64,000 nt of DNA from Fidelibacterota bacterium. Its GTDB lineage: Bacteria > Fidelibacterota > UBA8477 > JABMPR01. The translations under genes and the position numbers were made by a program. Shown here piece by piece: positions 4,022 through 35,538 of the stretch. Within the stretch, counting starts at the first letter, position 1; each line of letters begins with the position of its first letter. The notes below the pieces were generated by a model. That model was not told the DNA's origin. It saw only the letters and a list, made by a program, of their open reading frames with translations, and ran no database searches. The stretch spans positions 73,753-137,752 of the forward strand of contig JADHVL010000001.1 in assembly GCA_016784025.1 (NCBI GenBank), given 5' to 3'.

Positions 4022-6943
4022 ATGAGAAGCATAAAAGCTTTCTTTCTGATCATAATCCTGATGACAAGTTGGGTATTTGCCGGCGTAACAGGTAAACTGG
4101 CAGGTGTCGTCATTAACCAGGAAACGAAAGAACCATTAATTGGTGCTTCCATTGTGGTCCCAACCACCTGGGTTGATGAATTTCAGGTGGAAATGCTCCA
4201 TCCTTTTGGGGCCGCAGCCAATGAAAAGGGCCAATATTTTATACTGAATCTTGAACCAGGCGATTATGACATGAAAGTCATGATGATGGGATACGCTACT
4301 GAGCTTAGAACCAGAGTTCGTGTAGATGCAGACCGTACAACCTGGGTGAATTTTGAGCTCAAACCTGAAGCCATTTTAGGAGAGGATGTAGTTGTTACCG
4401 CCTATCGGGCTGATGACATCCAAGTTGATCTTACCGCGACACGTCAAAATTATGCCATGTCTGAAATGGAAAACAATACAGCGATGTACGAAATTGACGA
4501 TGTAATAGCGTTACAGGCTGATGTTGTCGACGATCATTTTCGAGGGGGCCGTGAGAATGAGACCCTGTATCTGGTTGATGGCGGAACCATTGTAGACCCC
4601 ATGGAAAATGGTAAAGCCTACACACCTCTGGTAATCAGTATGGAACAGGTTCAAGTCGTCACGAGTGGATTTAGTGCTGAATATGGGAACACGCAGTCAG
4701 GCGTGGTGAACATGATACCAAAACAGGGTAAAAATAAGTGGCGTACGAATGTTCAGGTTGTTTATACCGCTCCACATGATTTGTATTGGGGTGGGAGCGT
4801 TTTCGATACCTCCAGGACTCCGTGGAACCTGTTTGCAAGTGGTCCCGATTTTTGGCTCACTTCAGTTACAGACGGTGAGAATCCCTATTTTCAAGAAACT
4901 GGTGGTGGCAAGTACAATGCACACACCTATGACGATACACTCAAGCAAGCCGCGCTGGCATATGCGCAATTCCGAAGTTTCTCCCGTCTGCTTGGTGGGA
5001 ACTATAATGATCTCTGGCAGGACATGAGAGTGAACTTTAGCAGCGGGGGTCCCATCACTGAGAATACCCGTATCTTTATGGCCCTGGGTAATCATTCAAA
5101 ACCCAATATCATGCCCTCCGAAGAACCGGATGTTCGACGCGATATCATGGTAAATCTTACCCACGATATAAGCAGTACCAACAAGCTGGTGATGGGTTAT
5201 GACTACAACTATAACTTTAGTAATACCATTGGTGTGAATAATTCGAGAGATCTCTTCTTCAGGGAAGAGGGCAACTCAAAAAGGATTCGGACCACCCAGA
5301 ATGTTCGTCTTCGCTGGGAACATGTTTTTTCTAAAGCTGCTTTTATGGATATAAATTTTCGGATCCTCTATAACCGTTCCTGGCAGCTCGCACCTATTCG
5401 TGATCCCTCTCAGCAAATACCACAATACGGTCCTGCCAATGCGATACCGTTCTTTTCACGATTAGGTCTCAATGGGATGTATAGTGATGAATTCGCCAAT
5501 TCCAGAAACCGCAATCAAAACATCACCTATTCTCTACTTGGACAGGTCTCCAATCAGATTACCAATTACAATCTGCTCAAGTTTGGCTTGCAGGTCTTTG
5601 CCTATGATATCAACAATTATAATGAAAATAATGTAACAAGTCAGACCAACTATGAGCTGAATGAATATAAAGTGAGACCGGTTGAAGGCGCACTTTACCT
5701 GGAAGACAAACTCGAGTTTGAGGGTATGATAGCCAATCTTGGTTTGAGATGGGATTTTTACGATTTTAATACGAGTTACTTCACGGATCGCTTCTCACCG
5801 ACACGCAATCCGGATTTTAATCCTGACCTACCCTACTTTGAGCAAACAGATTATTTGGACATAGAGAATGCCCTGCGTGAAGACACCAAGCCATTCTCTA
5901 GACTTCAACCCCGCCTGGGAATTGCTTTTCCCATTAATCTGGCGTCAGTAGTGCATATGAATTATGGTCAATTCGTCCAACGACCTGGCTTGAAGTATGT
6001 CTATGAACGTCGTATTGAAGAAACGGGTCGTGTAAACAGTCTGGGCAACCCTCGACTGCGTCCAGAGAAAACAAACTCTTATGACATTGGTGTCGTCCAG
6101 GGCTTTCCCTTTGGTATCAGGGTTGACCTGAGTCTCTATTACAAAGATGTAAAGGATCTCATCCAGGCTGTCACCTATATCGATGAAGAGACCAACGTCT
6201 ACCGCACCTATGACAATCGGGACTATGCCAATATCAAGGGCTTTCATGCCAGCATTGAAAAACGGAGTAAGCTTTTTACGGCAATTGTCCGCTATCGATA
6301 CCAAAAAGCAACGGGGAAATCAGCGACTCCTTTTGATGCACCTGTAACCTATCTGGAGCTGGACAGACTCTCCGGGCGAATAGATGTCGAATTACCCGAT
6401 CCAGAAGATATTCCTATGGACTATGAGCGTACACACCGTCTGGTTACCAGCTTTAATGTAAAAAGTCCCAAAAAATTCGGTCCTAAAATGTTTGGATCGC
6501 GACCGCTGGGTAGTTGGAACTTGAATATTCGTAACGACTGGATGACTGGCCGTCCCTACACTTTTGATCCTGAAATTGCGGGACAACGCTATAATCGCAG
6601 AACGCCAGATGAAAACAAGCTCCAGGCTCGTCTCCAGAAGACATTCCATATGAGAGCATACGAATACACGGTCTATTTCGAGGGTATGAATTTGCTGAAT
6701 GATAAGGTATTCAACTATTCAATATTCAGGGGGGATAGCGAGCGCAAATCTGATCTCCATGATTATGGCGTTGAAGGTGAATGGGAAAATATCTATGACG
6801 AAAATGGGGAATTGGTGGAGCAAATCTGGCATGATGGAGCCAGGGTTTATACCCTGAACGTGGATTACCCATATATCGAAGAAGCAGTCATATATAAGAA
6901 CAGCCCAGCCTATTACAGGATGGGTGTGAATATAAAGTTTTAG
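4022..6943 (+). CDS. TonB-dependent receptor-type outer-membrane barrel with N-terminal carboxypeptidase-regulatory-like domain (cassette 1, gene 1)
   Basis: 973 aa with a signal peptide. N-terminal GKLAGVVINQETKEPLIGASIVV...YFILNLEPGDYDMKVMMMGY (CarbopepD_reg-like). Plug-like LYLVDGG..VQVVTSGFSAEYGNTQSGVVNMIPKQG. Long barrel ending in aromatic ...YRMGVNIKF. RBS GTGAGG upstream. Confidence 0.85.
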   Translation: MRSIKAFFLIIILMTSWVFAGVTGKLAGVVINQETKEPLIGASIVVPTTWVDEFQVEMLHPFGAAANEKGQYFILNLEPGDYDMKVMMMGYATELRTRVRVDADRTTWVNFELKPEAILGEDVVVTAYRADDIQVDLTATRQNYAMSEMENNTAMYEIDDVIALQADVVDDHFRGGRENETLYLVDGGTIVDPMENGKAYTPLVISMEQVQVVTSGFSAEYGNTQSGVVNMIPKQGKNKWRTNVQVVYTAPHDLYWGGSVFDTSRTPWNLFASGPDFWLTSVTDGENPYFQETGGGKYNAHTYDDTLKQAALAYAQFRSFSRLLGGNYNDLWQDMRVNFSSGGPITENTRIFMALGNHSKPNIMPSEEPDVRRDIMVNLTHDISSTNKLVMGYDYNYNFSNTIGVNNSRDLFFREEGNSKRIRTTQNVRLRWEHVFSKAAFMDINFRILYNRSWQLAPIRDPSQQIPQYGPANAIPFFSRLGLNGMYSDEFANSRNRNQNITYSLLGQVSNQITNYNLLKFGLQVFAYDINNYNENNVTSQTNYELNEYKVRPVEGALYLEDKLEFEGMIANLGLRWDFYDFNTSYFTDRFSPTRNPDFNPDLPYFEQTDYLDIENALREDTKPFSRLQPRLGIAFPINLASVVHMNYGQFVQRPGLKYVYERRIEETGRVNSLGNPRLRPEKTNSYDIGVVQGFPFGIRVDLSLYYKDVKDLIQAVTYIDEETNVYRTYDNRDYANIKGFHASIEKRSKLFTAIVRYRYQKATGKSATPFDAPVTYLELDRLSGRIDVELPDPEDIPMDYERTHRLVTSFNVKSPKKFGPKMFGSRPLGSWNLNIRNDWMTGRPYTFDPEIAGQRYNRRTPDENKLQARLQKTFHMRAYEYTVYFEGMNLLNDKVFNYSIFRGDSERKSDLHDYGVEGEWENIYDENGELVEQIWHDGARVYTLNVDYPYIEEAVIYKNSPAYYRMGVNIKF

Positions 6944-6975: not shown

Positions 6976-9339
6976 ATGGTGAAAATAGGAAGAACTGGGT
7001 TTGCGCTGATAATGATTCTTTCACTCATGGCAACATCGCTGTGGGCTCAAAGACGTGAATACAAGGTCATGCGCAGAGGCATGATGCGTGAATCACTCTA
7101 CAATAACGGAATTATCAGTACACCGTTTCATAATGATGGGATGGATATCGTGGATCACCCTCAGATGGAATGGCCCAAATATTCAAGTACGGTAGAGGGG
7201 ACCATTATTTATGATGGCCAACACAATACCATGGGTGGTGGTATACATATCTCAGGAAACATACATGACAAACCCTTTCAGGATGAACGTCACTTTTCCT
7301 TTTGTGGTCTTGTGGGAGGGGGCGGACCCGAGGAGACCATCGGTATCTGGAATTTCCCGGTAGAATTTCGTCGTATTGAAAATTATCCCATCCTGGCTGA
7401 TGGAAGTCTAAATCTGGAATATGATCCTGAAGAGGCAGAGGAAATCATTTACGCTAAATGGGCAACCAGTATGGGTGTCACAATCACACGGGTATCCAGA
7501 GCCTGGAGCTATCCTGACTATGACGATATGATTATCCATGAATACGAATTGGTGTTTGACGGAAATACCGATAGTGACCCTACTACTATTGAAGAAGTTG
7601 TCATCGAGCGCGGCTCTGGGGGAATAACCACACTCGATACCGTTCAAGTCTGGGAGGACTTTGTCGTATTCTTCGGTCAGAGCTGGGGTCCAAACATGTT
7701 TGCCTACCAGCGTCAACCTGAATATGGTGGGATATGGAATTGGAAACCGGGACTCATCAGCGATGGAAATCACCAGAGTTTTGACCATAAATTATGGACA
7801 CTTTTCAATTTTGATACTCAAACCAACGGTTCCTTAAACCGTAAGGCAAAACCTGAACCCAATCTGGATCTTTTTGAGGAATGGGCCAGAACCGGTAAAA
7901 ATGGTGGTGGGCTGCTAGCACCACAGGCAGTAGGTATGAGCATGCTGTACTACGACACAAAGCATCTCTCAGCAATCAATATTGCAACCGACACATCAGT
8001 CTATGACGGGGAAACCTCCTATGCCTGGAAAGCCAATGATCACGAACTGTTTCAGTTTCCAGATGAGCCGGATTCCAATGTATTCCGCATCAAGCAACCC
8101 TGGGAAATATACAAGAACAAAGGCTGGTTTGGCCTGAACAAGCTTTACGAAGGAGCTTCCAGTGAGACCGAGAAGCGAGGTAATCCTTTCGGTACAAGTT
8201 ATCTGGATGATCCACGAGTTGGTGAGACCTGGGTCGGTAGGGGAGCCTTCTCGTCTCAAAAGGCTAATGCCATGCCTCTCCAGGCCTTCGCATTTGGACC
8301 CTATACCATTCATCGCGGAGATACCGTTGAATTCAGTATGGCTCAAGTTGTGGGTTACGGAACCGATTCTCGTGAGATTATGGGAGGGGGATCCCATGAT
8401 CAAAGCGTCTTGTTTATGAAACCTGTTCACATTGATTCCTTTGATGTCATTCTTAAAAATGATGAGGGGAATGATGTACTCATGACCAGTCATTATATCT
8501 CTGATTACGGATACCCCGACTATGTCAATTCAGATGTGATCACAATTCAGGATGTATCACGCAAAGCCTATGAGATGTACACTGGAGATTCACTTGCACG
8601 AGTTGAAAGCTGGGGAACCGATGAATTCCGATATTGGCCTGAGAATAATGCAAGAGATGGAAAATATGTTGTTCAGGACATTCCCTGGCCTGCACCCGTG
8701 ATAGACGTTGCCAATACAGCCCTCCAGGGCGTGAGAGTTGCCTGGAATCGGGAGGTGGAGGATTTTCCGTATACAGTGAATGACCTTGGCGGATTCAATC
8801 TATATCGAGCCTATAATCCGCTTGGTCCCTGGAAATTGCTTGTCTCCAAGATAGTCGGAGATGTGAACTCAGATAACTCCTACGAATTCTTTGATGAAGA
8901 CACGACCTTGAAAATGGGTGAAGCTGTGTTTTACGCAGCGACAAGTTTTGATACTGAGGGCTTTGAATCTGGAAAATCCAATATCTTTCCTGATCCAGAT
9001 AATGCAGATGCACCGGCCTTCAGAAGAAGTCAGGGAGCAGTCGAGGAACTGGGTGATATTGTTGTGACACCCAATCCCTTCTTTGAAAAGTCTGGCTTCT
9101 CCGGAACTGGTGAAGATAATATGATTGGATTCTATGGATTGCCTGCAGTATGCACGATCAGGATCTATTCCTATTCTGGACAGCTGGTGGAAACACTGGA
9201 ACACGATTCTGATGCCTACAGTCATCAGTACTTTCAAGTAAGTCGAAACGATCAAATCATTGCAGCCGGTCTCTATTTCTTTTCAGTTTCAACCCCCGAC
9301 GGACAGACCACCGGCGGTAAATTTTTTATTATTAAGTGA
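6976..9339 (+). CDS. Orphan secreted protein with variant T9SS-like C-terminal domain (cassette 1, gene 2)
   Basis: 787 aa with a signal peptide (MILSLMATSLWAQ). I recognise no catalytic or binding domain. The C-terminus VVTPNPFFEKSGF...CTIRIYSYSGQLVETLEH...GLYFFSVSTPDGQTTGGKFFIIK resembles a CTD but deviates from the NYPNPFNP consensus. A paralogue lies at 33259..35538. Confidence 0.6.
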   Translation: MVKIGRTGFALIMILSLMATSLWAQRREYKVMRRGMMRESLYNNGIISTPFHNDGMDIVDHPQMEWPKYSSTVEGTIIYDGQHNTMGGGIHISGNIHDKPFQDERHFSFCGLVGGGGPEETIGIWNFPVEFRRIENYPILADGSLNLEYDPEEAEEIIYAKWATSMGVTITRVSRAWSYPDYDDMIIHEYELVFDGNTDSDPTTIEEVVIERGSGGITTLDTVQVWEDFVVFFGQSWGPNMFAYQRQPEYGGIWNWKPGLISDGNHQSFDHKLWTLFNFDTQTNGSLNRKAKPEPNLDLFEEWARTGKNGGGLLAPQAVGMSMLYYDTKHLSAINIATDTSVYDGETSYAWKANDHELFQFPDEPDSNVFRIKQPWEIYKNKGWFGLNKLYEGASSETEKRGNPFGTSYLDDPRVGETWVGRGAFSSQKANAMPLQAFAFGPYTIHRGDTVEFSMAQVVGYGTDSREIMGGGSHDQSVLFMKPVHIDSFDVILKNDEGNDVLMTSHYISDYGYPDYVNSDVITIQDVSRKAYEMYTGDSLARVESWGTDEFRYWPENNARDGKYVVQDIPWPAPVIDVANTALQGVRVAWNREVEDFPYTVNDLGGFNLYRAYNPLGPWKLLVSKIVGDVNSDNSYEFFDEDTTLKMGEAVFYAATSFDTEGFESGKSNIFPDPDNADAPAFRRSQGAVEELGDIVVTPNPFFEKSGFSGTGEDNMIGFYGLPAVCTIRIYSYSGQLVETLEHDSDAYSHQYFQVSRNDQIIAAGLYFFSVSTPDGQTTGGKFFIIK

Positions 9340-9351
9340 TGTGAGTGGAGT

Positions 9352-10419
9352 ATGAACATGAATAGAAAAATTGGCAGAACGAACCATGTCATGATCTGTC
9401 TGGCACTTTTCCTTTCCTCCCTGACAGCACAGGAGAAAGTGGGAACAACAGCATTTCAATTCCTGAAAGTCAATCCCACTGCCAGATCCGCGGCTATGGG
9501 TGATGCCACCTCATCGTTTGTTGATGGTGCATCCGCCATGTTTATCAATCCTGCAGGTCTAATGAATATTGACAAATTTGATATTTCAGCCTCTTATTTC
9601 AATTATTTCTTCGATGTAAAAACTTCAGCTTTTTCAGCAGCCTACAGCATCCCCAATTTTGGAACAGTTGGTGTGCTGGCTCAACTCACCGATTATGGTG
9701 AAATGAATGTTACTTCAGTTGAGGCTATGGGCTATCAAAATGGAGAGTTTAATCCAGGTTTTACCGGTGAGACATTCAATCCCGGACACCAGATCCTAGG
9801 TCTATCCTATGCCAATACACTTACAAACAAGTTTGCATTTGGTGTGACCGCGAAACACATCAAGGAAAATGCCGATTATTCCTGGAATGGCAGTGAGATG
9901 TCAGCTTCACTCATTGCCTTTGATACAGGACTGCAATACAGGACAGGTTATGAGTCTGTAAAAATTTCAATGGTCCTACGACATTTTGGTAAGGATGTAA
10001 GCTTTATAGAATATGAAGACACCCTGCGAATCTTTCATGATAGCACCTATACGGATGAAATCAGAACGGTAACCGGTAAACAATATCCCTTGCCCCAGAT
10101 TCTGGTTATGGGCATTTCAGGCTACATTTTTGGTCCAAAAGATGCGATTATCGCTACACCAGGCTCCAAATCAAGTCTACTATTCTCAGTGGATATGATG
10201 GCTCCCCGTGATTACGATCAGCAATTTAATTTTGGATTGGAATATGATTTTTCTAATCTTCTCTACTTACGGTCTGGCTACAAGCTGAACTACGATACAG
10301 AGAATTGGAGTCTTGGTTTTGGTCTCCATTATAAAGGTGTGCAGGTAGACTACTCGTTCAATAATTACGATTCATACCTTGGAACCATCAATCGATTTAC
10401 ACTTGGAATAGCCCTCTAA
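9352..10419 (+). CDS. PorV/PorQ-family outer-membrane beta-barrel (cassette 1, gene 3)
   Basis: 355 aa with a signal peptide. N-terminal GTTAFQFLKVNPTARSAAMGDA....ASAMFINPAGL matches the hallmark start of PorV/PorQ-family proteins. Alternating beta-strand pattern to the C-terminus. Confidence 0.7.
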   Translation: MNMNRKIGRTNHVMICLALFLSSLTAQEKVGTTAFQFLKVNPTARSAAMGDATSSFVDGASAMFINPAGLMNIDKFDISASYFNYFFDVKTSAFSAAYSIPNFGTVGVLAQLTDYGEMNVTSVEAMGYQNGEFNPGFTGETFNPGHQILGLSYANTLTNKFAFGVTAKHIKENADYSWNGSEMSASLIAFDTGLQYRTGYESVKISMVLRHFGKDVSFIEYEDTLRIFHDSTYTDEIRTVTGKQYPLPQILVMGISGYIFGPKDAIIATPGSKSSLLFSVDMMAPRDYDQQFNFGLEYDFSNLLYLRSGYKLNYDTENWSLGFGLHYKGVQVDYSFNNYDSYLGTINRFTLGIAL

Positions 10420-10438: not shown

Positions 10439-11962
10439 ATGAAAGTACGTCATATACTTGTATCAATGGTTACGCTCTTAGCCCTACTTGTCCTTTCTGA
10501 CAGAGCGTTAGCACAGGGGAATGGGGCAGATCTTGGATTTCAGGGCCTGGGGCAAATCAGTCCCCAGAGCGTGAGAGGACTGGCTACTGGAAATGCATAT
10601 ACTGCCAGATCAGGTGATATTGAATCGATCTATTTTAATCCAGCTGGATTGAATGGAATCCAGGGATTTCAAGTCTCCTACTCTGCCAAAACCACCGAGA
10701 CAACCCTGTGGGAAAATAAAATGTGGGGAGATCAAGAATCTACACCCTTGCTTAGTATGATTATGGATTATCGTTTCGAAATTGATCCTGGACAATATGG
10801 CGTGACTGACGATTCACTCTGGTTGTTGATGGATATTGAGGATATAGGTATTCCTGAGCAAGGAGTTTATCATTACGAGCGGAGTGCTGCAAGTTGGATT
10901 GAAGAACGCTCAAAGCAGCTGCCCTTTAACTCAATCTCTGCTGTTTTACCAGTCACTCTATTCGATCAAGATTTTGTACTGGGTGGCTCTTATTCCAGTC
11001 AGTATAATGTGGATGATTATGATCGTAATGACAGTCATACCGATCCCTTCCTGGCCAACCGACCCTATATGCACTATAACTATGAAACGTCTGACGATAC
11101 TGCTCATGTTGTTTGGTCAAAATTCACCAGAAACCGTCAAGGTGTCATCAATTCAATGCGGTTTGCCCTGGGCTATAGTCTTGGGGAGGTCATTCAACTT
11201 GGTCTAGGGGTGAATAGTCTGTCAGGTGATACTGAGGATGAATTAATCCTCGATAAAATTGCATCCCTCGATTTATGGTCAAAAAGCTTTGTATTTACCC
11301 ACGATTCACTGGTGACCCGAACTTCTGGAACTTCAAGTTTTAGTGGTTTTAATCTGGATATGGGATTCATCTTTGATTTTTCCACAATAGATTTTGGACT
11401 GCATATCAAGCTACCCTATCGTCTGAATCGTGACTGGAGCTATACAAGGCAAATCACATCTCTTGATTCGATCTCATCAACACCTTCAAACGGTCAGGAT
11501 TTTGTGGACATTCCTGCCTCAGGTGCAGTTGGTATAAATATCCAAGCCACACAAGATTTGAGTATTGCCTTTGACATGGGCTTAATACCATACGAGTCAG
11601 CCACTTTTGAATATGCGGACTTTGGATATGGGGATATTGTCTCTGACTCGACTCAGTACCAATGGGTGGATGTATTGAGTTATCAAGTAGGTTTGACATA
11701 TGAGTTTTCAGACTTCTTGACACTAATGGGTGGGTATCGTTCAACGCCACTTCCTTATGTACCCTGGGGAGTTGCAGACAAATCTGAAGGTCCACGATCC
11801 ATGGGTCTGACCACAGGGATATCCATCTCTGTTATGAATATTCAGCTTGATGTTGCTTATGAATACCAGGAGTTAAAGTACTTAGAACCAGCTTATGCCT
11901 ACCTTAATTTCGTTACTCAGCTGAGGAACACATTCCTTGTTGGTTTGACATATGGGTTTTGA
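10439..11962 (+). CDS. FadL/PorV-like outer-membrane beta-barrel (cassette 1, gene 4)
   Basis: 507 aa with a signal peptide ending ALAQG. N-terminal RGLATGNAYTA..GDIESIYFNPAGL motif, as in FadL/UPF0164-type barrels. C-terminal beta-signal ...FLVGLTYGF. Confidence 0.6.
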   Translation: MKVRHILVSMVTLLALLVLSDRALAQGNGADLGFQGLGQISPQSVRGLATGNAYTARSGDIESIYFNPAGLNGIQGFQVSYSAKTTETTLWENKMWGDQESTPLLSMIMDYRFEIDPGQYGVTDDSLWLLMDIEDIGIPEQGVYHYERSAASWIEERSKQLPFNSISAVLPVTLFDQDFVLGGSYSSQYNVDDYDRNDSHTDPFLANRPYMHYNYETSDDTAHVVWSKFTRNRQGVINSMRFALGYSLGEVIQLGLGVNSLSGDTEDELILDKIASLDLWSKSFVFTHDSLVTRTSGTSSFSGFNLDMGFIFDFSTIDFGLHIKLPYRLNRDWSYTRQITSLDSISSTPSNGQDFVDIPASGAVGINIQATQDLSIAFDMGLIPYESATFEYADFGYGDIVSDSTQYQWVDVLSYQVGLTYEFSDFLTLMGGYRSTPLPYVPWGVADKSEGPRSMGLTTGISISVMNIQLDVAYEYQELKYLEPAYAYLNFVTQLRNTFLVGLTYGF

Positions 11963-13909: not shown

Positions 13910-14002
13910 CAACCTCAGGATACTGCTCTGAATTGATCTGAATCGAGCTGGATTCATTGACATATCGTCATGAAGTTTGACTTGCTTTTTTATGAAATAT
14001 AG

Positions 14003-14017
14003 GTATACTAAATATAC
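14003..14017. promoter_or_regulatory. Palindrome GTATA-CTAAA-TATAC, candidate operator/promoter element
   Basis: Perfect inverted repeat 114 nt upstream of the ATG at 14131. The 16-nt core GTATACTAAATATACA is identical to the site at 17713. Confidence 0.5.
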
Positions 14018-14130
14018 ACAAGATTGAAAAGTTAATGGATTTCACATATTACTATTTTTTGAATAGCAAAAGTGTCTAGAGCTGACAACTCGAGGTCAAA
14101 TATTTATTCAACATTATAAGGAGAAGGTGT

Positions 14131-15705: not shown

Positions 15706-15831
15706 TATGATCTATTGTTCCAAAGTTTGATGGTGAGGGGATAGAGTCTTGTGGGCTTTATCCCCTCATTTTGTTTAAGCAAGAAGATAATATTACTCAA
15801 AACAGATATAAATCGAGACAAGGGAGGAAAT

Positions 15832-17400: not shown

Positions 17401-17427
17401 AATTAGAGTCATTCATTTTGACTTATC

Positions 17428-17466
17428 AGAGGCTGATTGCTGCAGAGTGGTCAGCCTCTTTTTGTT
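17428..17466 (+). terminator. Rho-independent terminator after the BNR-PKD gene
   Basis: AGAGGCTGA (17428-17436) pairs with TCAGCCTCT (17451-17459) and is followed by TTTTGTT, 28 nt after the stop at 17400. Confidence 0.7.
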
Positions 17467-17483
17467 CAGGGAGGAAAAGCCCC

Positions 17484-17660: not shown

Positions 17661-17712
17661 ACATTCCTGACATTACCTACGCAGTTATACCTTGCGATGA
17701 TTGAAAAATATA

Positions 17713-17727
17713 GTATACTAAATATAC
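17713..17727. promoter_or_regulatory. Palindrome GTATA-CTAAA-TATAC, candidate operator/promoter element
   Basis: Perfect inverted repeat 99 nt upstream of the ATG at 17826, immediately downstream of the hairpin-repeat array. Confidence 0.5.
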
Positions 17728-17825
17728 ATAATAGAGATTTTGCTTCTATGACAACAATGAGAATTATGAGTAAATCTAAAAAAATCATAAAGACAATAAT
17801 AATAGTATGATAGGATGATATTATC

Positions 17826-30342: not shown

Positions 30343-33249
30343 ATGCCACAATCCAGAATAATGACTAAGCTTATTAAAGGTGCCATACTATTGGCTTTGA
30401 TCATTCAAACCACAGTATTGGCTGATCAAACGGGTAAAATTTCTGGAATTGTTCGGGATATTGAAACTGAGGAAGGGCTGATTGGTGCCAACGTTGTCAT
30501 TAATGAGCGTTGGGTGGGGGGAGAGATCGAACCCATAAGTAGACCCAGGGGAGCCGCCACAGATTTGGATGGCCGCTTCTATATCATTAATCTTGAACCA
30601 GGTTTTTACAATGTGGAAGTCCATATGATGGGCTATCAGTCAAAAATGATTGAAAGGGTGCGCATAGACGTCGATAAAACTACTGAATTATTCTTTGATG
30701 TCAGTTCCGAAGCACTCCTTATGGATGATATTTTAGTTACTTCCTTCCGCTCAGATATGATCCAGCGGGATCTTACTGCGACCAAGCAGAATTACATCAT
30801 GTCAGAACTTGAAGAAGTCGCTGGAATAAGTGATGTTCAGGACATAATCGACTTAAACGCCGATATCGTTGACGATAATGTTCGAGGGGGTCGTGAAGCG
30901 GAAACTCAATACCTGATTGGTGGAGCCAGTATTGTAAACCCTCTATCGAATAAGGCTTCCTTTAAGCCCATGACATCAGGTTTGCAGGCTGTTGAAGTAT
31001 TTACCTCAGGTTTTTCAGCTGAATATGGAAACGCCCAATCCGGTGTCATTAATATGGTTCCCAAAACAGGCGGTAAACGCTGGAGTACCAAGGTTAATTA
31101 TTCCGGAACATTACCTCATTATAATCACTGGGGCGGATCGGCCTGGAGTGAGGATACCAGACCTCACGATCTGTTTGGCGGAGACGCTGAGAATTGGCTT
31201 CAGGTCAGTCAACAGGATTCCAGTCAATCCCTGATAAACTGGAATAGTAACGGCTCCTATGCCAATTACGTGGATCTTGAAAATGCTACCCATGAGGACA
31301 GTCTCAAAGTGGCCGAGTTTGCTCGGGCTCAATACCTGGCTTTTGCCAGACAGATTGGGTTGGCCTATGATGAAGTGACTGATTACCGGATTGATCTTTC
31401 TACTGGAGGACCTGTATCTGATAAGACAAGAATCTTTCTGGCCGTCAGACAACAGGTAGATGGTACCAAAGTTTTGACAGCCTTTCCAAATAAATCAAGA
31501 CAACTGATGACAAACTTTTCATGGGCTCCCTCTGTGGAAAACAAGTTCATCATCTCCATGAATTATTATACCTCCGAGAAACTCAACTGGAGCGTGGGGA
31601 GTAGGTATGTCAAAATCTTCAATCCTGACTATGGTCCCCATCGTGATCGAAACCAGGCTGCGGATTATGGACTTCGCTGGGAACATATATTTAGTCAAAA
31701 ATCCTATATGGAGATGAACCTGAGGAGTTTCACTACGGATTATGCTCACAGATATCCTATCCGTGATCCTGAATGGATGGGTTCAAATTGGGGTAGCAAT
31801 TTTAATACACCGATCTGGTTGCCTGGCGATCTGAATAATAAGGTTCTTGAGAATAACTATTCTGCCGAGAAGACCAAGACAGTGAGGTTTTATGGTTCCT
31901 GGAATAAGCAACTCAATATCAATAATTTGATGAAAGCTGGTTGGCAGCTGTTTACGTATGATCTGCACACAGAGCGGTCGGCTTCAGCCAGTTCACCCAA
32001 TGCCCAAATTCTGACATACCACGAGAAACCCTATGAGGGAGCATTCTATGTTCAGGACAAGATGGAGTTTGAGGGCCTGGTTGCGAATATTGGACTACGA
32101 TTTGACTTCTATAATTATAATTACAAGTATTTCACAAATCTTTTTCATCCCACAGCCAATCCAAATTATGATTCCAGTTTACCACCTGGCTTGCGAGGCC
32201 CTTTTAACGATCCTGAATTAGCAGAAACAAGCCAAACCGAATTGGTCTACCATCTGCAACCCAGGATGGGGTTTTCTTATCCGGTCAATGAGCGATCGGT
32301 GATTCATGTGAATTATGGAAGTTTTACGCAGCGTCCCAATTTTGACAAAATCTATCGACGCTACTATGATATTACAGGCAACGAGGTCGATGAACTGGGT
32401 AATGCCCGTCTGAAGCCAGAGCGAACCAACGCCTATGATTTTGGATTGGTCCAAGGACTTCCCTTTGGTTTCAGGATTGATGTCTCAACCTATTATAAGG
32501 ATGTGAAAAACCTGGTTCAGACAGTCTTTTACGAAGACTCAACAGGGTCAGACTATAAAGGATTTGCCAACCTGGATTACGCCAATATCAAAGGATTCAG
32601 TATGAACCTTGTGAAAAAAACGGGTAATCTAAAAGTGAGCGTGCGCTACAATTTTCAGAAAGCCGTAGGTAAAAATCCGACACCTTTTGATGCAACACTC
32701 TCTTATAAGGAAGGATCTGACGGGCGTTATGATTTTGATCATGAGAATAATCGAGCACCTGAACCTGAAGATGTGATCATGAACTATAATCGGCGAAACA
32801 GAATTATCACTAACATTCAATATAAAACACCTACAGAATTTGGACCACAGATCTTTGGAGGACTACCTTTCTCAGGTATCTCAATGAATGCTAAACTCAC
32901 ATATCAGGAAGGAAGACCATATACGTACTACGGACCCGATGAATCAATCGGTCCTCAGTTTAATAAAGTCGGTCCAGATGAGCATAATCTCCAATTTATG
33001 TTTGCTAAAAATATGCGCTTTGGTAAACAGAAGCTGGCCCTGAACCTTACCATCTTTAATGTTCTGAATGAGAAGGTGTTCGCCTATTCCTTGTTTAAAG
33101 ATTTTGAAGCGGTTGAAGAATATGAAGCAGGCGACATTGATGCTGTGATGGTTGAAAGTGATTATTCACCCATGGATTTCCCCCAGCACATCCGCTACTA
33201 TCAAAATGCACCTCGCTACTATCGCCTTGGCGTTCAGTGGACTTTTTAA
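30343..33249 (+). CDS. TonB-dependent receptor-type outer-membrane barrel with carboxypeptidase-regulatory-like domain (cassette 2, gene 1)
   Basis: 968 aa, AAGGAG RBS. Collinear with 4022..6943 (GKISGIVRDIETEEGLIGANVVI, FYIINLEPGFYNVEVHMMGY, VEVFTSGFSAEYGNAQSGVINMVPKTG). C-terminal ...YRLGVQWTF. Confidence 0.85.
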   Translation: MPQSRIMTKLIKGAILLALIIQTTVLADQTGKISGIVRDIETEEGLIGANVVINERWVGGEIEPISRPRGAATDLDGRFYIINLEPGFYNVEVHMMGYQSKMIERVRIDVDKTTELFFDVSSEALLMDDILVTSFRSDMIQRDLTATKQNYIMSELEEVAGISDVQDIIDLNADIVDDNVRGGREAETQYLIGGASIVNPLSNKASFKPMTSGLQAVEVFTSGFSAEYGNAQSGVINMVPKTGGKRWSTKVNYSGTLPHYNHWGGSAWSEDTRPHDLFGGDAENWLQVSQQDSSQSLINWNSNGSYANYVDLENATHEDSLKVAEFARAQYLAFARQIGLAYDEVTDYRIDLSTGGPVSDKTRIFLAVRQQVDGTKVLTAFPNKSRQLMTNFSWAPSVENKFIISMNYYTSEKLNWSVGSRYVKIFNPDYGPHRDRNQAADYGLRWEHIFSQKSYMEMNLRSFTTDYAHRYPIRDPEWMGSNWGSNFNTPIWLPGDLNNKVLENNYSAEKTKTVRFYGSWNKQLNINNLMKAGWQLFTYDLHTERSASASSPNAQILTYHEKPYEGAFYVQDKMEFEGLVANIGLRFDFYNYNYKYFTNLFHPTANPNYDSSLPPGLRGPFNDPELAETSQTELVYHLQPRMGFSYPVNERSVIHVNYGSFTQRPNFDKIYRRYYDITGNEVDELGNARLKPERTNAYDFGLVQGLPFGFRIDVSTYYKDVKNLVQTVFYEDSTGSDYKGFANLDYANIKGFSMNLVKKTGNLKVSVRYNFQKAVGKNPTPFDATLSYKEGSDGRYDFDHENNRAPEPEDVIMNYNRRNRIITNIQYKTPTEFGPQIFGGLPFSGISMNAKLTYQEGRPYTYYGPDESIGPQFNKVGPDEHNLQFMFAKNMRFGKQKLALNLTIFNVLNEKVFAYSLFKDFEAVEEYEAGDIDAVMVESDYSPMDFPQHIRYYQNAPRYYRLGVQWTF

Positions 33250-33258
33250 GGGACTCCT

Positions 33259-35538
33259 ATGAAGAATTATTTATATAACCAGAATTCTACTGAGAGTGCT
33301 ATTTCAAAATGCTTAAAGTTGGTATTGCTTATCACATTCCTGATGAGTTTTACATCAACATTATGGGCACAACGTGAACGTCTGGTTCATGATCGTGGCA
33401 CTCTCCATGAGACGTTTTATAACACGGGGGTTTTCGTGGCTCCATTCAAAAATAATGGAATTGAATCTACCAATACTCCCATGACTGAATGGCCAGCCTG
33501 GTCCAGGACTGTGATTGACAATATTGAATATTATGGTCAACACAACGGTCTGGGAGGGGGTATCCATATTGGTGTGAACCATCCAGGAAAGTTAGGTGTA
33601 GATCAAAAACACTTTTCCTTTGCCGGGATGGTTGGTTCAGGTGGTCCAGAGATGGAATATGAAGTTTGGTGCTGGCCTCTTGAATTCTGGAAAGAAACCA
33701 ACTATCCACTGCAGGATGATGGTAGTCTCAATCCGGATTTTGATCCCAATGAGGCCGAACAACTCATTCATACCAGATTTGCTACCAGTGTTGGTATGAC
33801 CGTGACGCGGGTCACTCGCCAATACAGCTATCCCAGGCTGGATGATATCATCTTCCACGAATACGAATTAGAATTTACTGGAAATACCGATTATGATGAA
33901 ACCACTATTGAGCAGGATTCAGTAGATACCTATGTGGATGCCCTGTTTGCATTTCATATGGCCATACCACCTAACATGATGAGCTTTCAGAGAACATTTG
34001 GGTCATGGTACTGGAAACCGGGCATTTTCAGAGGTGATGTATACAACAGCTTTGATACTGATTATGCGATGTTTTATTGTCAAAGCATCAGCACCCAGCA
34101 AGACCACTCCAAACCTTATCATCCTGAACCAGATGAAGATCTGTTCTGGGAGTTTGCGTCTACCGGTTTAAATGGTGGTGGATTGCTGGCACCCCAGGCT
34201 GCTGGTCATACTGCCCTGCATTGGGATAGGGAACATCTAACAGTTCTAGATACGACAGACACTACTTTTCATCTGACCACCATGGAGTATGCACAACATG
34301 CGTCCGACTTTGAATGGGATGAAGGCTTAACCATTAAGCAACCCTGGGGAATTATCCAGAATGCTGGTTGGTTTGTTTCTACTGGGCTCATCAATAAACC
34401 ACACTACAAGACGCATAACCGGGCCCAGGGTAAATTTCCCGAACTTGATGCGCCTGATCCAAATGAGCATCCAATGTTTTGGGTGGGAAGACCCAAGTTT
34501 ACACCTAGAAGTGCAGAAGCACCGGCCTCGTCTTTTATTTGTGGTCCTTATACCATCAACCGCGGTGATAAACTGAATTTTAGTTTTGCACAGGTTGTTG
34601 GATACGGCTCAGAACCAGGAAAAAGGGTATTTGGAGGTGGGCAGAAATCAGATCTATGGGGGACAGCCCCTGATATCAATGCTGAACTCACAGTAGGGGA
34701 TAGTACTTTCAGATATCTGGATACTTTTGGATATCCCGATTATGTAAATGCAGAAACCGGTGTTATCTCTGTACAGGATGTAGCTCGGGAAGCGTGGAAA
34801 GCCTATACTGGCTGGGATATTGAGCATGATTCCCTCTGGGCTGAAGATTCTGTGGTTTGTTGGCCAGATTGGACCGAGCCCCACGGCTTGTATGATGTCT
34901 ATATTCCAGTTCCAGCTCCAGGCTTAAAAGTGAGCAATGATGAAGAGGCCAATGTACACGTGACATGGTCTAGAGCTGTGGAAGATTTCACGCATGCTTC
35001 TTCCGCCCTGGACTCATTCTATGTGTTTAGAAGTTTCAATCGGCTGGGACCATGGAAACGTCTGGTCACTATTGCAGCCGGGGATGTCAATTCAGAGGAT
35101 TACTATGAATACATCGATGACAATCTGGACTTCGCCTTTACAGATGTAGCCTTCTATGCAGTGACCTCAGTTGATGTCAACGGAAATCAGAGTGGCAAAA
35201 CAAATATGACTCAACATCGAAGGGATATTGGACCTGAGGGTGATCTTGAAAATATTTTTATTGTCCCCAATCCCTTTATCCTGGAGAGTGGTTTTCAAAA
35301 TGCGGCACTTGCGAATGCAGTCAGCATTTTCGGACTTCCCGAGAAATGCTCTATCCGTGTCTATAGTTTTGCTGGCCAAAGGGTTCAGAGTATTGAGCAT
35401 GACAATTCTGAGAGTGGATCGCTCACATTTAATCTGGTAAATGAGAACAACATGCTCCTGGCTCCAGGTGTTTATTTTGTTGCCATTCAAACTCCAGAGG
35501 GACAACAGGCCATGACAAAATTTGTGATTATTCGCTAA
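33259..35538 (+). CDS. Orphan secreted protein with variant T9SS-like C-terminal domain (cassette 2, gene 2)
   Basis: 759 aa. Collinear with 6976..9339 (YYGQHNGLGGGIHIG, HFSFAGMVGSGGPE, DDIIFHEYELEFTGNTD, GGGLLAPQAAG, FAQVVGYGS). C-terminus IVPNPFILESGF...CSIRVYSFAGQRVQSIEH...GVYFVAIQTPEGQQAMTKFVIIR. Confidence 0.6.
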   Translation: MKNYLYNQNSTESAISKCLKLVLLITFLMSFTSTLWAQRERLVHDRGTLHETFYNTGVFVAPFKNNGIESTNTPMTEWPAWSRTVIDNIEYYGQHNGLGGGIHIGVNHPGKLGVDQKHFSFAGMVGSGGPEMEYEVWCWPLEFWKETNYPLQDDGSLNPDFDPNEAEQLIHTRFATSVGMTVTRVTRQYSYPRLDDIIFHEYELEFTGNTDYDETTIEQDSVDTYVDALFAFHMAIPPNMMSFQRTFGSWYWKPGIFRGDVYNSFDTDYAMFYCQSISTQQDHSKPYHPEPDEDLFWEFASTGLNGGGLLAPQAAGHTALHWDREHLTVLDTTDTTFHLTTMEYAQHASDFEWDEGLTIKQPWGIIQNAGWFVSTGLINKPHYKTHNRAQGKFPELDAPDPNEHPMFWVGRPKFTPRSAEAPASSFICGPYTINRGDKLNFSFAQVVGYGSEPGKRVFGGGQKSDLWGTAPDINAELTVGDSTFRYLDTFGYPDYVNAETGVISVQDVAREAWKAYTGWDIEHDSLWAEDSVVCWPDWTEPHGLYDVYIPVPAPGLKVSNDEEANVHVTWSRAVEDFTHASSALDSFYVFRSFNRLGPWKRLVTIAAGDVNSEDYYEYIDDNLDFAFTDVAFYAVTSVDVNGNQSGKTNMTQHRRDIGPEGDLENIFIVPNPFILESGFQNAALANAVSIFGLPEKCSIRVYSFAGQRVQSIEHDNSESGSLTFNLVNENNMLLAPGVYFVAIQTPEGQQAMTKFVIIR

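What the first reader, a model, noticed from the sequence alone, without database searches (positions are those of the whole stretch)
6976..10419. Variant C-terminal sorting domain paired with its own PorV-like barrel
Nine other secreted proteins in the window carry the canonical (N/W)(Y/F)PNPFNPxTxIxF CTD start. The two cassette gene-2 proteins instead have (V/I)(T/V)PNPF(F/I)(E/L)(K/E)SGF...C(T/S)IR(I/V)YS(Y/F)(S/A)GQ, a related but distinct tail. Each is immediately followed by a PorV/PorQ-family gene.

Established precedent: type-B CTD cargoes in Bacteroidota are often encoded next to a dedicated PorP/SprF-like barrel.

Inference: an analogous cargo-specific CTD/PorV-paralogue pairing may operate here.
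Basis: partly seen in the sequence, partly recalled or inferred. Interest (0 to 1): 0.7.

Follow-up and report, generated by a model that had tools for sequence, protein, structure and literature searches.

The report
Private PorQ-like anchor for transporter partner
A marine bacterium (and hundreds of relatives in sister phyla of the Bacteroidota) encodes nutrient-uptake gene cassettes in which the surface partner of an outer-membrane transporter carries a special, highly conserved secretion tail and is always followed by its own PorV/PorQ-type barrel. This suggests a previously undescribed way of fixing such partners to the cell surface.

Summary
Nine window proteins carry canonical NYPNPFNPxT type-A CTDs. 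The two "gene-2" proteins (6976-9339, 33259-35538) carry a distinct tail with a 9-residue insertion after PNPF. Each is followed 12-20 nt later by a PorV/PorQ-family barrel (NF033709, about 160 bits; top fold match F. johnsoniae PorV).

The pairing holds widely. In 83 related loci, 80/80 variant-tail genes are followed by such a barrel, against 0/139 canonical-tail genes. The same tail class occurs on unrelated passenger proteins: about 1,777 50%-identity clusters at E<=1e-10. All 8 of these examined are followed by a barrel, and all 6 with upstream sequence are preceded by a TonB-dependent transporter.

The tail is the most conserved part of the protein. It resembles the uncleaved PorZ CTD, and the barrels score higher on the PorQ model than on the PorV model. 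The tail's divergence tracks the barrel (r=0.81); the passenger's tracks the transporter (r=0.91).

Best reading: a TBDT + T9SS-exported surface partner + private PorQ-like anchor (+ a FadL-like barrel), serving as the uptake core of polysaccharide-utilisation loci. No experiment exists, and I found no description in the literature.

The parts
4022..6943 (+). Cassette 1, gene 1: TonB-dependent-receptor-like outer-membrane barrel (973 aa) with an N-terminal CarboxypepD_reg domain
   Evidence: Pfam PF00593 76.8 bits, PF13715 49.9, PF13620 39.3, weak Plug. NCBIfam gives only generic TonB models far below their cut-offs, and no SusC/RagA model is listed at E<=0.1. A homologue lies directly upstream of gene 2 in every locus with enough flank.
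6976..9339 (+). Cassette 1, gene 2 (787 aa): Sec signal peptide (aa 1-24, LWA|Q), beta-rich N-terminal region (aa 25-565) with no known family, FN3-like domain (aa 566-672), variant CTD (aa 695-787)
   Evidence: No Pfam family. AF2: pLDDT 81, pTM 0.85. No global PDB fold match, TM<=0.23. 186 homologues at E<=1e-5, about 750 aa long. NCBI's own model of the identical protein is 775 aa, covering 98% of this ORF, so it probably starts about 12 codons further in.
9058..9339 (+). Variant C-terminal sorting domain of gene 2 (aa 695-787) plus the stop codon; the insertion loop with the SGF motif is aa 702-715 (nt 9079-9120)
   Evidence: TIGR04183 24.4 bits over profile positions 11-70 only; PorZ C-terminal region 16 bits. 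It is the most conserved region of the protein, 61% mean pairwise identity. Loop 701-712 has pLDDT<50 although its motif is conserved. hhalign against canonical tails shows a 9-residue gap.
9352..10419 (+). Cassette 1, gene 3: PorV/PorQ-family outer-membrane barrel (355 aa), proposed private anchor or shuttle for the gene-2 CTD
   Evidence: NF033709 161.9 bits (cut-off 90). PorQ equivalog 88.6 and PorV equivalog 58.4, both below their cut-offs. AF2 pLDDT 86. Foldseek top hits are PorV 8gl6_F and 6h3i_F, TM 0.65-0.67.
10439..11962 (+). Cassette 1, gene 4: larger FadL/BamG-like barrel (507 aa)
   Evidence: Pfam Toluene_X 28.2 bits, just under its cut-off. NCBIfam BamG 38 bits (cut-off 250), and a PorV_fam match to the N-terminal motif only. 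It is conserved after gene 3 in gene-2-type cassettes and absent from family-2 cassettes.
30343..33249 (+). Cassette 2, gene 1: paralogous TonB-dependent-receptor-like barrel (968 aa)
   Evidence: Pfam PF00593 63 bits; CarboxypepD_reg domains about 42-43 bits.
33259..35538 (+). Cassette 2, gene 2 paralogue (759 aa); its variant CTD is about nt 35257-35535
   Evidence: 41% identical to cassette 1 gene 2. The tail scores 32.3 bits on TIGR04183 and 31.3 bits on the PorZ C-terminal region. Variant-HMM 112 bits against canonical-HMM 23 bits.
35559..36533 (+). Cassette 2, gene 3: PorV/PorQ-family barrel (324 aa)
   Evidence: NF033709 159.1 bits; PorQ 92.3; PorV 67.9.
36546..38063 (+). Cassette 2, gene 4: FadL/BamG-like barrel (505 aa)
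   Evidence: Weak Toluene_X (17 bits) and BamG (18.5 bits) matches. Syntenic with cassette 1 gene 4.

Best explanation
The two cassettes are the outer-membrane cores of polysaccharide-utilisation-type loci in a Marinimicrobia (Fidelibacterota) genome. Each encodes four proteins:
- a TonB-dependent transporter;
- a Sec-exported, beta-rich surface protein (gene 2);
- a PorV/PorQ-family barrel;
- a larger FadL-like barrel.

**Proposed mechanism (inferred).**
1. Gene 2 crosses the outer membrane through the type IX secretion system. Its C-terminal domain is a distinct, PorZ-like subclass of the type-A fold.
2. The generic PorV does not hand the protein to the sortase. Instead the cassette's own PorQ-like barrel takes the CTD, and the CTD is retained. 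The barrel therefore acts as a private carrier and permanent membrane anchor, as PorQ does for PorZ and PorV for PorU.
3. The anchored passenger domain works with the neighbouring transporter as its surface substrate-capturing partner. It is functionally analogous to SusD or a surface glycan-binding protein, but fixed by a barrel-docked CTD rather than a lipid.
4. The fourth barrel is an accessory of the anchoring module.

**What is shown.**
- The tail class exists and is distinct.
- Its linkage to a PorV/PorQ-family gene and to a transporter gene is near-absolute.
- It occurs on unrelated passengers.
- It is unusually conserved.
- The divergence of tail and barrel is correlated.

**What is inferred.** T9SS dependence, CTD retention, direct CTD-barrel contact, the passenger-transporter complex and substrate binding.
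For: **Family and fold.**
- Gene 3 belongs to the PorV/PorQ family by NF033709 (162 and 159 bits, cut-off 90).
- Its best fold match is PorV, TM 0.65-0.67.

**Synteny.**
- TBDT, gene 2, PorV/Q barrel and FadL-like barrel keep the same order and strand in all 80 genome loci wherever the contig allows. The loci come from Ignavibacteria, Calditrichota, Marinimicrobia/Fidelibacterota and KSB1.

**Discrimination within the same loci.**
- 80/80 variant-CTD genes are followed by a barrel, against 0/139 canonical-CTD genes.

**Independence from the passenger.**
- A profile of the tail alone finds 7,468 cluster representatives at E<=1e-3 and 1,777 at E<=1e-10.
- The second tier are proteins of 570-1,260 aa that share only the CTD with gene 2.
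- Their tails align without gaps to gene-2 tails (hhalign E 2.6e-45).
- All 8 examined are followed by an NF033709 barrel (120-236 bits). All 6 with upstream sequence are preceded by a CarboxypepD_reg TBDT.
- One genome can carry several such cargo-barrel pairs, with barrels only about 30% identical to each other.

**Resemblance to PorZ-PorQ.**
- 41/41 gene-2 tails and 26/28 family-2 tails match the CTD region of the PorZ model, best E 3e-10. Only 2 of the 8 other window tails scanned do so, and weakly.
- The cassette barrels score higher on the PorQ model than on the PorV model.
- The literature reports that PorZ and PorU CTDs are not cleaved and that these proteins are held on PorQ and PorV (PMC12365241; PMC10947112).

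**Conservation.**
- The CTD is the most conserved region of gene 2, 61% against 54% for the N-terminal region.
- By contrast, generic CTD surfaces that contact PorV and SprA are poorly conserved (PMC10994853).
- The near-C-terminal Lys important for T9SS transport is retained (K87 invariant).

**Correlated divergence across 64 complete cassettes.**
- r(CTD, barrel) = 0.81, against r(CTD, own N-terminal region) = 0.66.
- None of 300 random N-terminal blocks of the same length reaches 0.81 (maximum 0.72).
- r(N-terminal region, TBDT) = 0.91.

**Context.**
- The window holds four GH29 fucosidases, three sulfatases, GH141-like/beta-helix proteins and a rhamnose mutarotase.
- Other loci hold alginate-lyase, KDG-pathway or peptidase genes.
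Against: - There is no experimental or structural evidence for any contact.
- The tail still passes the generic type-A threshold when scored alone (24-32 bits against 23). NCBI names some family members 'T9SS type A sorting domain-containing protein'. Ordinary PorV/PorU handling is therefore not excluded.
- The correlated divergence of CTD and barrel could reflect physical linkage of the 3' end of gene 2 to gene 3. That would make a recombination block [CTD, barrel, FadL-like] against [TBDT, N-terminal region], with no protein contact needed.
- The 80 gene-2 loci were collected by homology to gene 2, so they are not independent events.
- The barrels fall below both the PorQ and the PorV equivalog cut-offs.
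- The N-terminal region has no recognisable binding or catalytic fold, so 'substrate-capturing partner' rests on context only.
- Core T9SS genes are not in the window.
Confidence: 0.55

Rival explanations
1. Dedicated shuttle only. The adjacent barrel collects this cargo class from the T9SS translocon, as SprF-like proteins do for type-B cargo. It then releases the cargo; the CTD is cleaved and the protein is attached or released by another route. The barrel is a private carrier, not a permanent anchor.
For: - The genetic pairing is the same as for type-B CTD with SprF (PMC12618676).
- All association data fit this reading as well as they fit anchoring.
- The tail keeps type-A fold features and the conserved Lys.
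Against: - One barrel gene per cargo gene, even several per genome, suggests stoichiometric, lasting complexes.
- The CTD is more conserved than the passenger.
- It resembles the uncleaved PorZ CTD.
Confidence: 0.2
2. Ordinary type-A cargo plus an unrelated barrel. Gene 2 is handled by the housekeeping PorV and PorU. The adjacent PorV/FadL-like barrels serve the transporter in another way, for example as diffusion channels for degradation products or as assembly factors. The unusual tail is only the family-specific form of a conserved protein.
For: - The tail reaches the TIGR04183 cut-off.
- FadL-family barrels have transport and BAM-platform roles (PMC12578637).
- All gene-2 loci descend from one ancestral operon.
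Against: - The same tail class sits on unrelated passengers, each with its own barrel.
- Canonical-CTD genes in the same loci never have a barrel (0/139).
- The CTD diverges with the barrel rather than with its own protein.
- The barrel's best fold match is PorV (TM 0.65-0.67), ahead of FadL transporters (about 0.52).
Confidence: 0.1
3. T9SS-independent assembly. The Ig-like tail is a docking domain, and the protein reaches the surface together with its barrel during BAM-mediated insertion. This would resemble barrel-surface-protein complexes such as BamG-BamH or SusCD, without passage through SprA.
For: - FadL-like barrels can hold surface proteins through their loops or barrel wall (PMC12578637).
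- No core T9SS genes lie in the window.
Against: - The tail is a clear homologue of T9SS CTDs (hhalign 97% probability against the window's canonical CTDs; PorZ and PorU CTD matches).
- It retains the transport-relevant Lys.
- The genome clearly uses T9SS: nine canonical CTD proteins lie in this window alone.
Confidence: 0.07

Closest known systems
PorZ-PorQ and PorU-PorV sub-complexes of the Porphyromonas gingivalis T9SS attachment complex
   Same: - A T9SS cargo whose CTD is not removed is held on the cell surface by a PorV-family 14-stranded barrel (PMC12365241, PMC10947112).
- The tails here match the PorZ CTD region.
- The barrels belong to the PorV/PorQ family and score higher on PorQ than on PorV.
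   Different: - The passenger is unrelated to PorZ. Only the CTD region matches, and the whole-protein score is far below the 260-bit cut-off.
- The pair is not part of the secretion machinery. It lies in transporter/PUL-type cassettes, in several copies per genome, in Fidelibacterota, Calditrichota, Ignavibacteria and KSB1.
- CTD retention has not been shown here.
Type-B CTD cargo with cognate PorP/SprF-like barrels (SprB-SprF, Fjoh type-B substrates, PG1035-PorP)
   Same: - The cargo gene is followed directly by the gene for its own outer-membrane carrier or anchor.
- Several cargo-specific pairs occur per genome (PMC12618676, PMC9143113).
   Different: - The tail is not type B: neither window tail matches TIGR04131, and across the family matches are only weak.
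- The barrel is PorV/PorQ family, not PorP/SprF.
- The pair is embedded behind a TonB-dependent transporter.
SusC/SusD-type transporter-partner pairs (Bacteroidota polysaccharide utilisation loci)
   Same: - A TonB-dependent transporter with an N-terminal CarboxypepD_reg domain is followed directly by a surface partner gene.
- It sits inside loci rich in CAZymes, sulfatases or peptidases.
   Different: - The partner is beta-rich, has no SusD-family match and is not a lipoprotein; it has a signal peptidase I site with no lipobox Cys.
- The transporter does not reach SusC/RagA models.
- Two extra barrels are present.
- Attachment is proposed to go through the T9SS CTD.
BamG-BamH (FadL-like barrel as platform for a surface protein in the Bacteroidota BAM complex)
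   Same: - A FadL-superfamily barrel serves as the attachment platform for an extracellular protein (PMC12578637).
- Gene 4 gives its best, though weak, NCBIfam match to BamG.
   Different: - Scores are far below the BamG cut-off (38 against 250).
- The context is a nutrient-uptake cassette, not BAM.
- BamH is a lipoprotein.

Membership tests
T9SS type-A C-terminal sorting domain (TIGR04183 / PF18962) | Score at or above the curated cut-off (23 bits for TIGR04183; 27 for PF18962) | tested here: inconclusive
   - Whole proteins score 18.2 (below) and 26.0 (above) on TIGR04183.
- Tails alone score 24.4 and 32.3, against 36.8-49.1 for the canonical tails scanned, and cover profile positions 11/13-71 only.
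- On Pfam PF18962, one protein has no hit and the other scores 17.7, below the cut-off.
T9SS type-A C-terminal sorting domain (TIGR04183 / PF18962) | C-terminal Ig-like beta-sandwich of about 70-100 aa with the conserved near-C-terminal Lys | tested here: met
   - AF2 strands at 696-700, 716-720, 725-732, 737-744, 765-772 and 778-785.
- K87 of the tail alignment is invariant and the terminal K/R is conserved.
- hhalign against the window's canonical CTDs gives 97% probability.
T9SS type-A C-terminal sorting domain (TIGR04183 / PF18962) | CTD removed by PorU, and cargo released or linked to anionic LPS | not testable with these tools
   Requires proteomics or mutants.
T9SS type-B sorting domain (TIGR04131) | Score at or above the 35-bit cut-off; cognate PorP/SprF-like barrel | tested here: not met
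   - Neither window tail hits at E<=1.
- Only 11/41 family tails give weak hits, best E 0.0011.
- The neighbouring barrel is PorV/PorQ family.
PorV/PorQ family outer-membrane barrels (NF033709) | Score at or above the 90-bit subfamily cut-off over the full model length | tested here: met
   - 161.9 and 159.1 bits over profile positions 1-325 of 326.
- 120-236 bits for barrels next to non-gene-2 cargo.
PorV/PorQ family outer-membrane barrels (NF033709) | PorV-like FadL-superfamily barrel fold | tested here: met
   - AF2 pLDDT 86, pTM 0.80.
- Foldseek top hits are PorV 8gl6_F (E 5.7e-16, TM 0.67) and 6h3i_F (TM 0.65). FadL follows at about 0.52 and BamG at 0.47.
PorQ (NF033711) or PorV (NF033710) orthologues | Equivalog cut-offs of 220 and 250 bits | tested here: not met
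   PorQ 88.6 and 92.3; PorV 58.4 and 67.9. These are paralogues of both, scoring higher on PorQ.
PorZ (NF052228) | Full-length equivalog match (cut-off 260 bits; two beta-propellers plus CTD) | tested here: not met
   - Only model positions about 664-757, the CTD, match, at 15-31 bits.
- PorZ structure 5m11 is a weak fold hit (TM 0.11).
SusC/SusD pair | SusD-family (all-alpha, TPR-like) lipoprotein partner | tested here: not met
   - No SusD-family Pfam hit.
- The model is beta-rich.
- The signal peptide ends LWA|Q with no lipobox cysteine.
SusC/SusD pair | TonB-dependent transporter with an N-terminal CarboxypepD_reg extension, encoded directly upstream of the partner in a substrate-utilisation locus | tested here: met
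   - Pfam domains.
- Spacers of 32 and 9 nt.
- Conserved synteny.
- CAZyme, sulfatase or peptidase contexts.
- No SusC/RagA NCBIfam model is listed at E<=0.1.

The most novel reading that the evidence does not exclude
Sister lineages of the classical Bacteroidota (Fidelibacterota/Marinimicrobia, Calditrichota, Ignavibacteria, KSB1) build their 'SusCD-like' uptake machines without surface lipoproteins.

The transporter's surface partner is exported by the T9SS. It is then permanently plugged, through a third CTD class that is PorZ-like (neither ordinary type A nor type B), into a private PorQ-like barrel encoded next to it.

The PorZ-PorQ and PorU-PorV pairs of the T9SS attachment complex would then be specialised members of a much larger, ancient 'CTD-in-barrel' surface-anchoring system. 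That system is used by well over a thousand protein families or clusters for nutrient capture.
Probability: 0.4. Interest if true: 0.85.

Novelty: new variant of a known kind. Interest (0 to 1): 0.74.

Why it matters
How T9SS cargo is sorted to different fates is an open question. Only two signal classes with defined carriers are established: type A with PorV, and type B with PorP/SprF. PorZ-PorQ stands as an unexplained special case.

This finding would add a widespread, sharply recognisable CTD class, each member with its own PorQ-like carrier or anchor. That would make the logic of PorZ-PorQ general and testable.

It would also explain how abundant marine and sediment heterotrophs (Marinimicrobia, Calditrichota, Ignavibacteria, KSB1) couple surface capture of polysaccharide or protein to TonB-dependent import in loci that lack a SusD-type partner. 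That in turn gives a simple genomic marker for annotating their utilisation loci: TBDT, then a variant-CTD protein, then an NF033709 barrel.

Practically, the tail and barrel pair could serve as a modular surface-display system.

Tried and rejected
- **Disulfide between the CTD and the passenger.** Cys110 and Cys726 are 94% and 91% conserved, and two family-2 proteins have exactly one Cys in each part. Across 190 sequences, however, the two positions do not covary: 149 have both, 34 have lost one and 6 have lost both. The barrels and the transporter have no conserved Cys. Rejected.
- **CTD-barrel complex modelling.** Not done.
- **Metagenome scan with the family-2 tail alignment.** Replaced by single look-ups of eight proteins.
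- **Fold of the gene-2 passenger.** Foldseek against the PDB gave only low-TM hits to FN3 tandems and to the beta-sandwich N-domains of GH94 phosphorylases and ExoMA2. No function could be assigned. SusD-like, enzyme or adhesin identities are all unsupported.
- **Sequence search of the PDB.** The barrel and the tail profile found nothing significant.
- **L069 (Fidelibacterota chromosome).** It looked like a gene-2 homologue without tail or barrel. The region is in fact broken into many frames, from frameshifts or assembly errors, so it is not a natural counter-example.
- **Literature.** Eight searches aimed at the cassette found no description of this cassette or CTD class. The library covers open-access papers only, so absence is not proof.
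- **Promoter and terminator scans of cassette 1.** No more sites than shuffled controls. Uninformative.

Full report
**What is in the window**

The window comes from a Candidatus Marinimicrobia (NCBI: Fidelibacterota) MAG. The gene-2 product is 100% identical to a deposited 'hypothetical protein' of such a MAG (taxonomy).

All large genes around the finding lie on the + strand. There are two paralogous four-gene cassettes.

| Cassette | Gene 1 (transporter) | Gene 2 | Gene 3 (barrel) | Gene 4 (barrel) |
|---|---|---|---|---|
| 1 | 4022-6943, 973 aa | 6976-9339, 787 aa | 9352-10419, 355 aa | 10439-11962, 507 aa |
| 2 | 30343-33249 | 33259-35538 | 35559-36533 | 36546-38063 |

Spacers between the genes are 9-32 nt.

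- Gene 1 is a TonB-dependent-receptor-like barrel with an N-terminal CarboxypepD_reg domain (Pfam).
- Gene 2 has no Pfam family.
- Gene 3 is a PorV/PorQ-family protein: NF033709 at 161.9 and 159.1 bits (cut-off 90). It is below the PorQ (88.6, 92.3 against 220) and PorV (58.4, 67.9 against 250) equivalog cut-offs.
- Gene 4 is a larger FadL/BamG-like barrel with only weak matches.

The surroundings are a fucose-rich sulfated-glycan utilisation region. They hold four GH29 fucosidases, three sulfatases, GH141-like and beta-helix proteins, a rhamnose mutarotase and an ABC sugar importer.

**Checking the observation**

Nine window proteins end with N(Y/F)PNPFN(P/A/G)xTxIxF. A tenth has a divergent start.

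- On TIGR04183, the canonical tails scanned score 36.8-49.1 bits over profile positions 2-70. The two gene-2 tails score 24.4 and 32.3 bits over positions 11/13-71 only.
- As whole proteins, the gene-2 products score 18.2 and 26.0 bits against a cut-off of 23.
- A profile-profile alignment of gene-2-type tails with the window's canonical tails is significant (97% probability). It has only 22% identity and a 9-residue gap directly after PNPF.

The tail is a homologue of type-A CTDs, but a distinct one.

**Is the tail a real class?**

The gene-2 family has 186 members at E<=1e-5. They are about 750 aa long and come from Marinimicrobia/Fidelibacterota, Calditrichota, Melioribacteraceae/Ignavibacteria and unclassified FCB bins.

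Their tails are strikingly uniform. The consensus is VYVVPNPFxxxSGFxGxGxxxxIGFYGLPEKCTIRIFSYAGQLVETIEHDxPxYSTxWFQVTRNxQxIASGIYFYVVTTPxGxxxxGKFxVIK.

The CTD is the most conserved part of the protein, with 61% mean pairwise identity. The N-terminal region has 54%, the FN3-like domain 49% and the linker 38%. This is the opposite of what is expected of a disposable signal. [quoted passage not shown]

The AF2 model of gene 2 (pLDDT 81, pTM 0.85) shows three parts:
- a beta-rich N-terminal region (aa 25-565);
- an FN3-like domain;
- the CTD sandwich.

The conserved insertion loop (aa 701-712) is the only internal stretch of ten or more residues with pLDDT<50; the other is three residues, 257-259. 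That pattern fits a segment that becomes ordered on a partner.

**Association with the barrel**

A scan of one genome per GTDB species gave 239 confirmed homologous stretches, of which the best 80 loci were kept.

- In every locus with enough flanking DNA, the order transporter, gene 2, PorV/Q barrel, FadL-like barrel is preserved on one strand.
- Local HMMs for the two tail classes were run over all ORFs of 83 loci plus the window. They found 85 proteins with the variant tail and 158 with a canonical tail, cleanly separated.
- Among genes with at least 1 kb of downstream DNA, 80/80 variant-tail genes are followed by a PorV/Q-like gene, against 0/139 canonical-tail genes.
- Of 85 PorV/Q-like ORFs, only one is not preceded by a variant-tail gene (L049 4865-5950). 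That one is also the only barrel scoring higher on PorV than on PorQ.

These loci were ascertained through gene 2, so this is conservation of one operon, not 80 independent events.

**Separating tail from passenger**

A profile of the tail alone was searched against 1.84 billion cluster representatives. It found 7,468 hits at E<=1e-3 and 1,777 at E<=1e-10. From the listed score and E-value pairs, E<=1e-10 corresponds to roughly 57 bits or more. That is well above the 35-bit maximum that canonical CTDs reached on the locally built variant-tail HMM, a similar but not identical profile, so I take it as only a rough guide.

- Below the gene-2 family lies a second tier of proteins, 570-1,260 aa long. 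Their tails read VVPNPYxVxAxWExxxxxxxIxFxxLPxxCTIRIYTxxGxLVxTIxHxxxxGxExWNLxTxxxQxVAxGxYxYxVxTPxGxxxxGKFAIIR.
- These tails align to gene-2 tails over 93 columns without a gap (E 2.6e-45).
- The passengers are unrelated to gene 2; only the CTD aligns in BLASTP and hhalign. They form at least one large family and several singletons.

I looked up eight such proteins: P0168, P0222, P0183, P0186, P0187, P0208, the 1,151-aa protein of L091 and the 1,148-aa protein of L081/L082.

- All eight are followed directly by an NF033709 barrel of 120-236 bits.
- All six with upstream sequence are preceded by a CarboxypepD_reg transporter.
- Canonical-CTD genes in these loci are not followed by a barrel.
- These cassettes lack the fourth gene. 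Some sit beside secreted peptidases.
- One Ignavibacteria-type genome carries a family-2 pair 8 kb from its gene-2 cassette.
- Another contig carries two pairs in tandem.
- Barrels of gene-2 cassettes average 47% identity to each other but only 30% to family-2 barrels.

Each cargo therefore brings its own barrel, and the link follows the tail class rather than the passenger.

**What the pair resembles**

- All 41 gene-2 tails tested and 26/28 family-2 tails match the C-terminal (CTD) part of the NCBIfam PorZ model (best E 3e-10). That is at least as good as their match to the generic type-A model.
- Only 2 of the 8 other window tails scanned touch the PorZ model, at E>=0.0017.
- All but one of the barrels score higher on PorQ than on PorV.
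- The AF2 model of the barrel (pLDDT 86) has F. johnsoniae PorV as its top two PDB matches (TM 0.65-0.67). FadL transporters (about 0.52) and BamG (0.47) come after.

In P. gingivalis, PorZ and PorU are T9SS cargo whose CTDs are not cleaved. They are held on the surface by PorQ and PorV. [quoted passage not shown]

It is the more distant analogy, because neither the tail nor the barrel belongs to those families.

**Correlated divergence**

Across 64 complete cassettes, pairwise distances give the following correlations.

| Comparison | r |
|---|---|
| CTD vs PorV/Q barrel | 0.81 |
| CTD vs its own N-terminal region | 0.66 |
| CTD vs transporter | 0.69 |
| N-terminal region vs transporter | 0.91 |

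- Taxon bootstraps keep the differences positive: r(CTD, barrel) minus r(CTD, N-terminal region) has a 95% CI of 0.065 to 0.247.
- None of 300 random contiguous 93-column blocks of the N-terminal region reaches 0.81 with the barrel (maximum 0.72).
- Every such block tracks the transporter better than the barrel; the CTD does the reverse.

This fits two functional modules, [transporter + passenger] and [CTD + barrels]. It could equally arise from recombination that keeps the 3' end of gene 2 linked to gene 3. I treat it as support for modularity, not proof of contact.

**Most likely mechanism**

Shown:
- a distinct, highly conserved CTD class;
- its obligate genomic pairing with a private PorV/PorQ-family barrel and with a TonB-dependent transporter;
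- its placement in substrate-utilisation loci. These include alginate-type loci with PL6-like and alginate-lyase/heparinase II/III-type lyases, KDG kinase and aldolase, a cupin, SDR, MFS and GntR. They also include the fucoidan-type window and peptidase-type loci.

Inferred:
- Gene 2 is exported by Sec (signal peptide LWA|Q) and then by the T9SS. The tail keeps the type-A fold and the invariant near-C-terminal Lys.
- The cassette's barrel, not the generic PorV, takes the CTD. It keeps it, so the protein stays on the surface.
- The passenger cooperates with the adjacent transporter as its capture or lid partner.

I put about 0.85 on a specific functional coupling of tail and barrel. I put about 0.55 on stable anchoring with a retained CTD rather than transient shuttling, and about 0.7 on a role as transporter partner.

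**Rivals**
- A shuttle-only barrel.
- An ordinary type-A cargo with a functionally unrelated barrel.
- T9SS-independent co-assembly.

The second is weakened most, by the passenger-independent association and by 0/139 for canonical tails.

**Novelty**

Each component has precedents: PorZ-PorQ anchoring, type-B/SprF gene pairing and SusC/SusD transporter-partner pairs. The combination is not filed under any curated family I could test.

- No Pfam or NCBIfam model covers the passenger.
- The barrels are named only at subfamily level.
- The tail is either left unannotated or called type A.
- Eight full-text searches aimed at the cassette found no description. The library is open-access only.

I rate it a new variant of a known kind. 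It is widespread, with roughly 1,800 clusters at 50% identity, and of clear interest for T9SS sorting and for nutrient uptake in abundant uncultured FCB lineages.

**Limits**
- No complex modelling could be run.
- No coordinates of the AF2 models were available for inspecting domain contacts.
- The passenger fold gave no functional lead.
- Core T9SS genes and any SusD homologues elsewhere in these genomes were not examined.
- Organism labels of many MAGs ('Bacteroidetes bacterium', 'Cytophagia', 'Lentisphaeria') are as deposited and may be unreliable.

Noticed in passing
window 11999-19193 (+): Four tandem paralogues with a BNR/PSII_BNR (sortilin-like) beta-propeller. Two of them (11999-13909 and 17826-19193) also carry a dockerin type I domain (Pfam 31 and 21 bits). 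The last one lacks the T9SS CTD that the other three have. Dockerins in T9SS cargo of a Marinimicrobia genome are unusual. I did not search for a cohesin partner.
   Followed up: partly
window 62691-63968 (-): A 425-aa protein with an HEFFH motif and a weak DUF6055 match. Its CTD starts LWPNPTIPR instead of NYPNPFNP, yet it scores 41.7 bits on TIGR04183. No PorV-like neighbour is visible; the window ends 32 nt beyond the gene.
   Followed up: partly
window 44869-47364 (+): A third TonB-dependent receptor (OMP_b-brl_3, Plug, CarboxypepD_reg) that has no gene-2-type partner and no PorV-like barrel. Not every transporter in this locus uses the module.
   Followed up: no
L049 1751-5950 (-), divergent from the gene-2 cassette at 7001: The only PorV/PorQ-family gene in the collected loci that is not preceded by a variant-CTD gene. 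It is also the only one scoring higher on the PorV model (81.9) than on the PorQ model (71.5), and it is followed by a TBDT-like gene. It may be the housekeeping PorV of that genome.
   Followed up: partly
L090/L091 1-11665; L081/L082 1-1851: Tandem or nearby additional cargo-barrel pairs in single genomes. A 1,151-aa and a 1,181-aa variant-CTD protein each have their own barrel on one contig. A 1,148-aa variant-CTD protein with its barrel lies 8 kb upstream of a gene-2 cassette.
   Followed up: yes
L069 5300-15000 (Fidelibacterota chromosome CP070656): The whole cassette is split over many reading frames. NCBI also labels the gene-2 product from a Fidelibacterota MAG 'partial' (P0096). This is either long-read indel errors or a decayed cassette.
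   Followed up: partly
window 7303-7305 and 9151-9153 (Cys110 and Cys726 of gene 2): Two cysteines are conserved in 94% and 91% of the family, one in the passenger and one in the CTD. They do not covary, and none of the other three cassette proteins has a conserved cysteine. Their role is unexplained.
   Followed up: yes
window 28949-29671 (-): A 240-aa Ser/Thr-rich ORF lies antisense inside the 1,500-aa beta-helix/cadherin-like CTD protein (25638-30140). It is most likely a spurious ORF.
   Followed up: no
window 61238-61325 (-): tRNA-Ser (anticodon CGA). It is the only RNA gene found in the window by ARAGORN and Rfam.
   Followed up: yes
PMC3534657 (Melioribacter roseus genome paper), genes Mros0759-0761: The paper calls three outer-membrane genes of a starch operon 'SusC, SusD and SusE'. 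I did not check whether the 'SusD/SusE' genes are true SusD/E homologues or members of the cassette described here.
   Followed up: no
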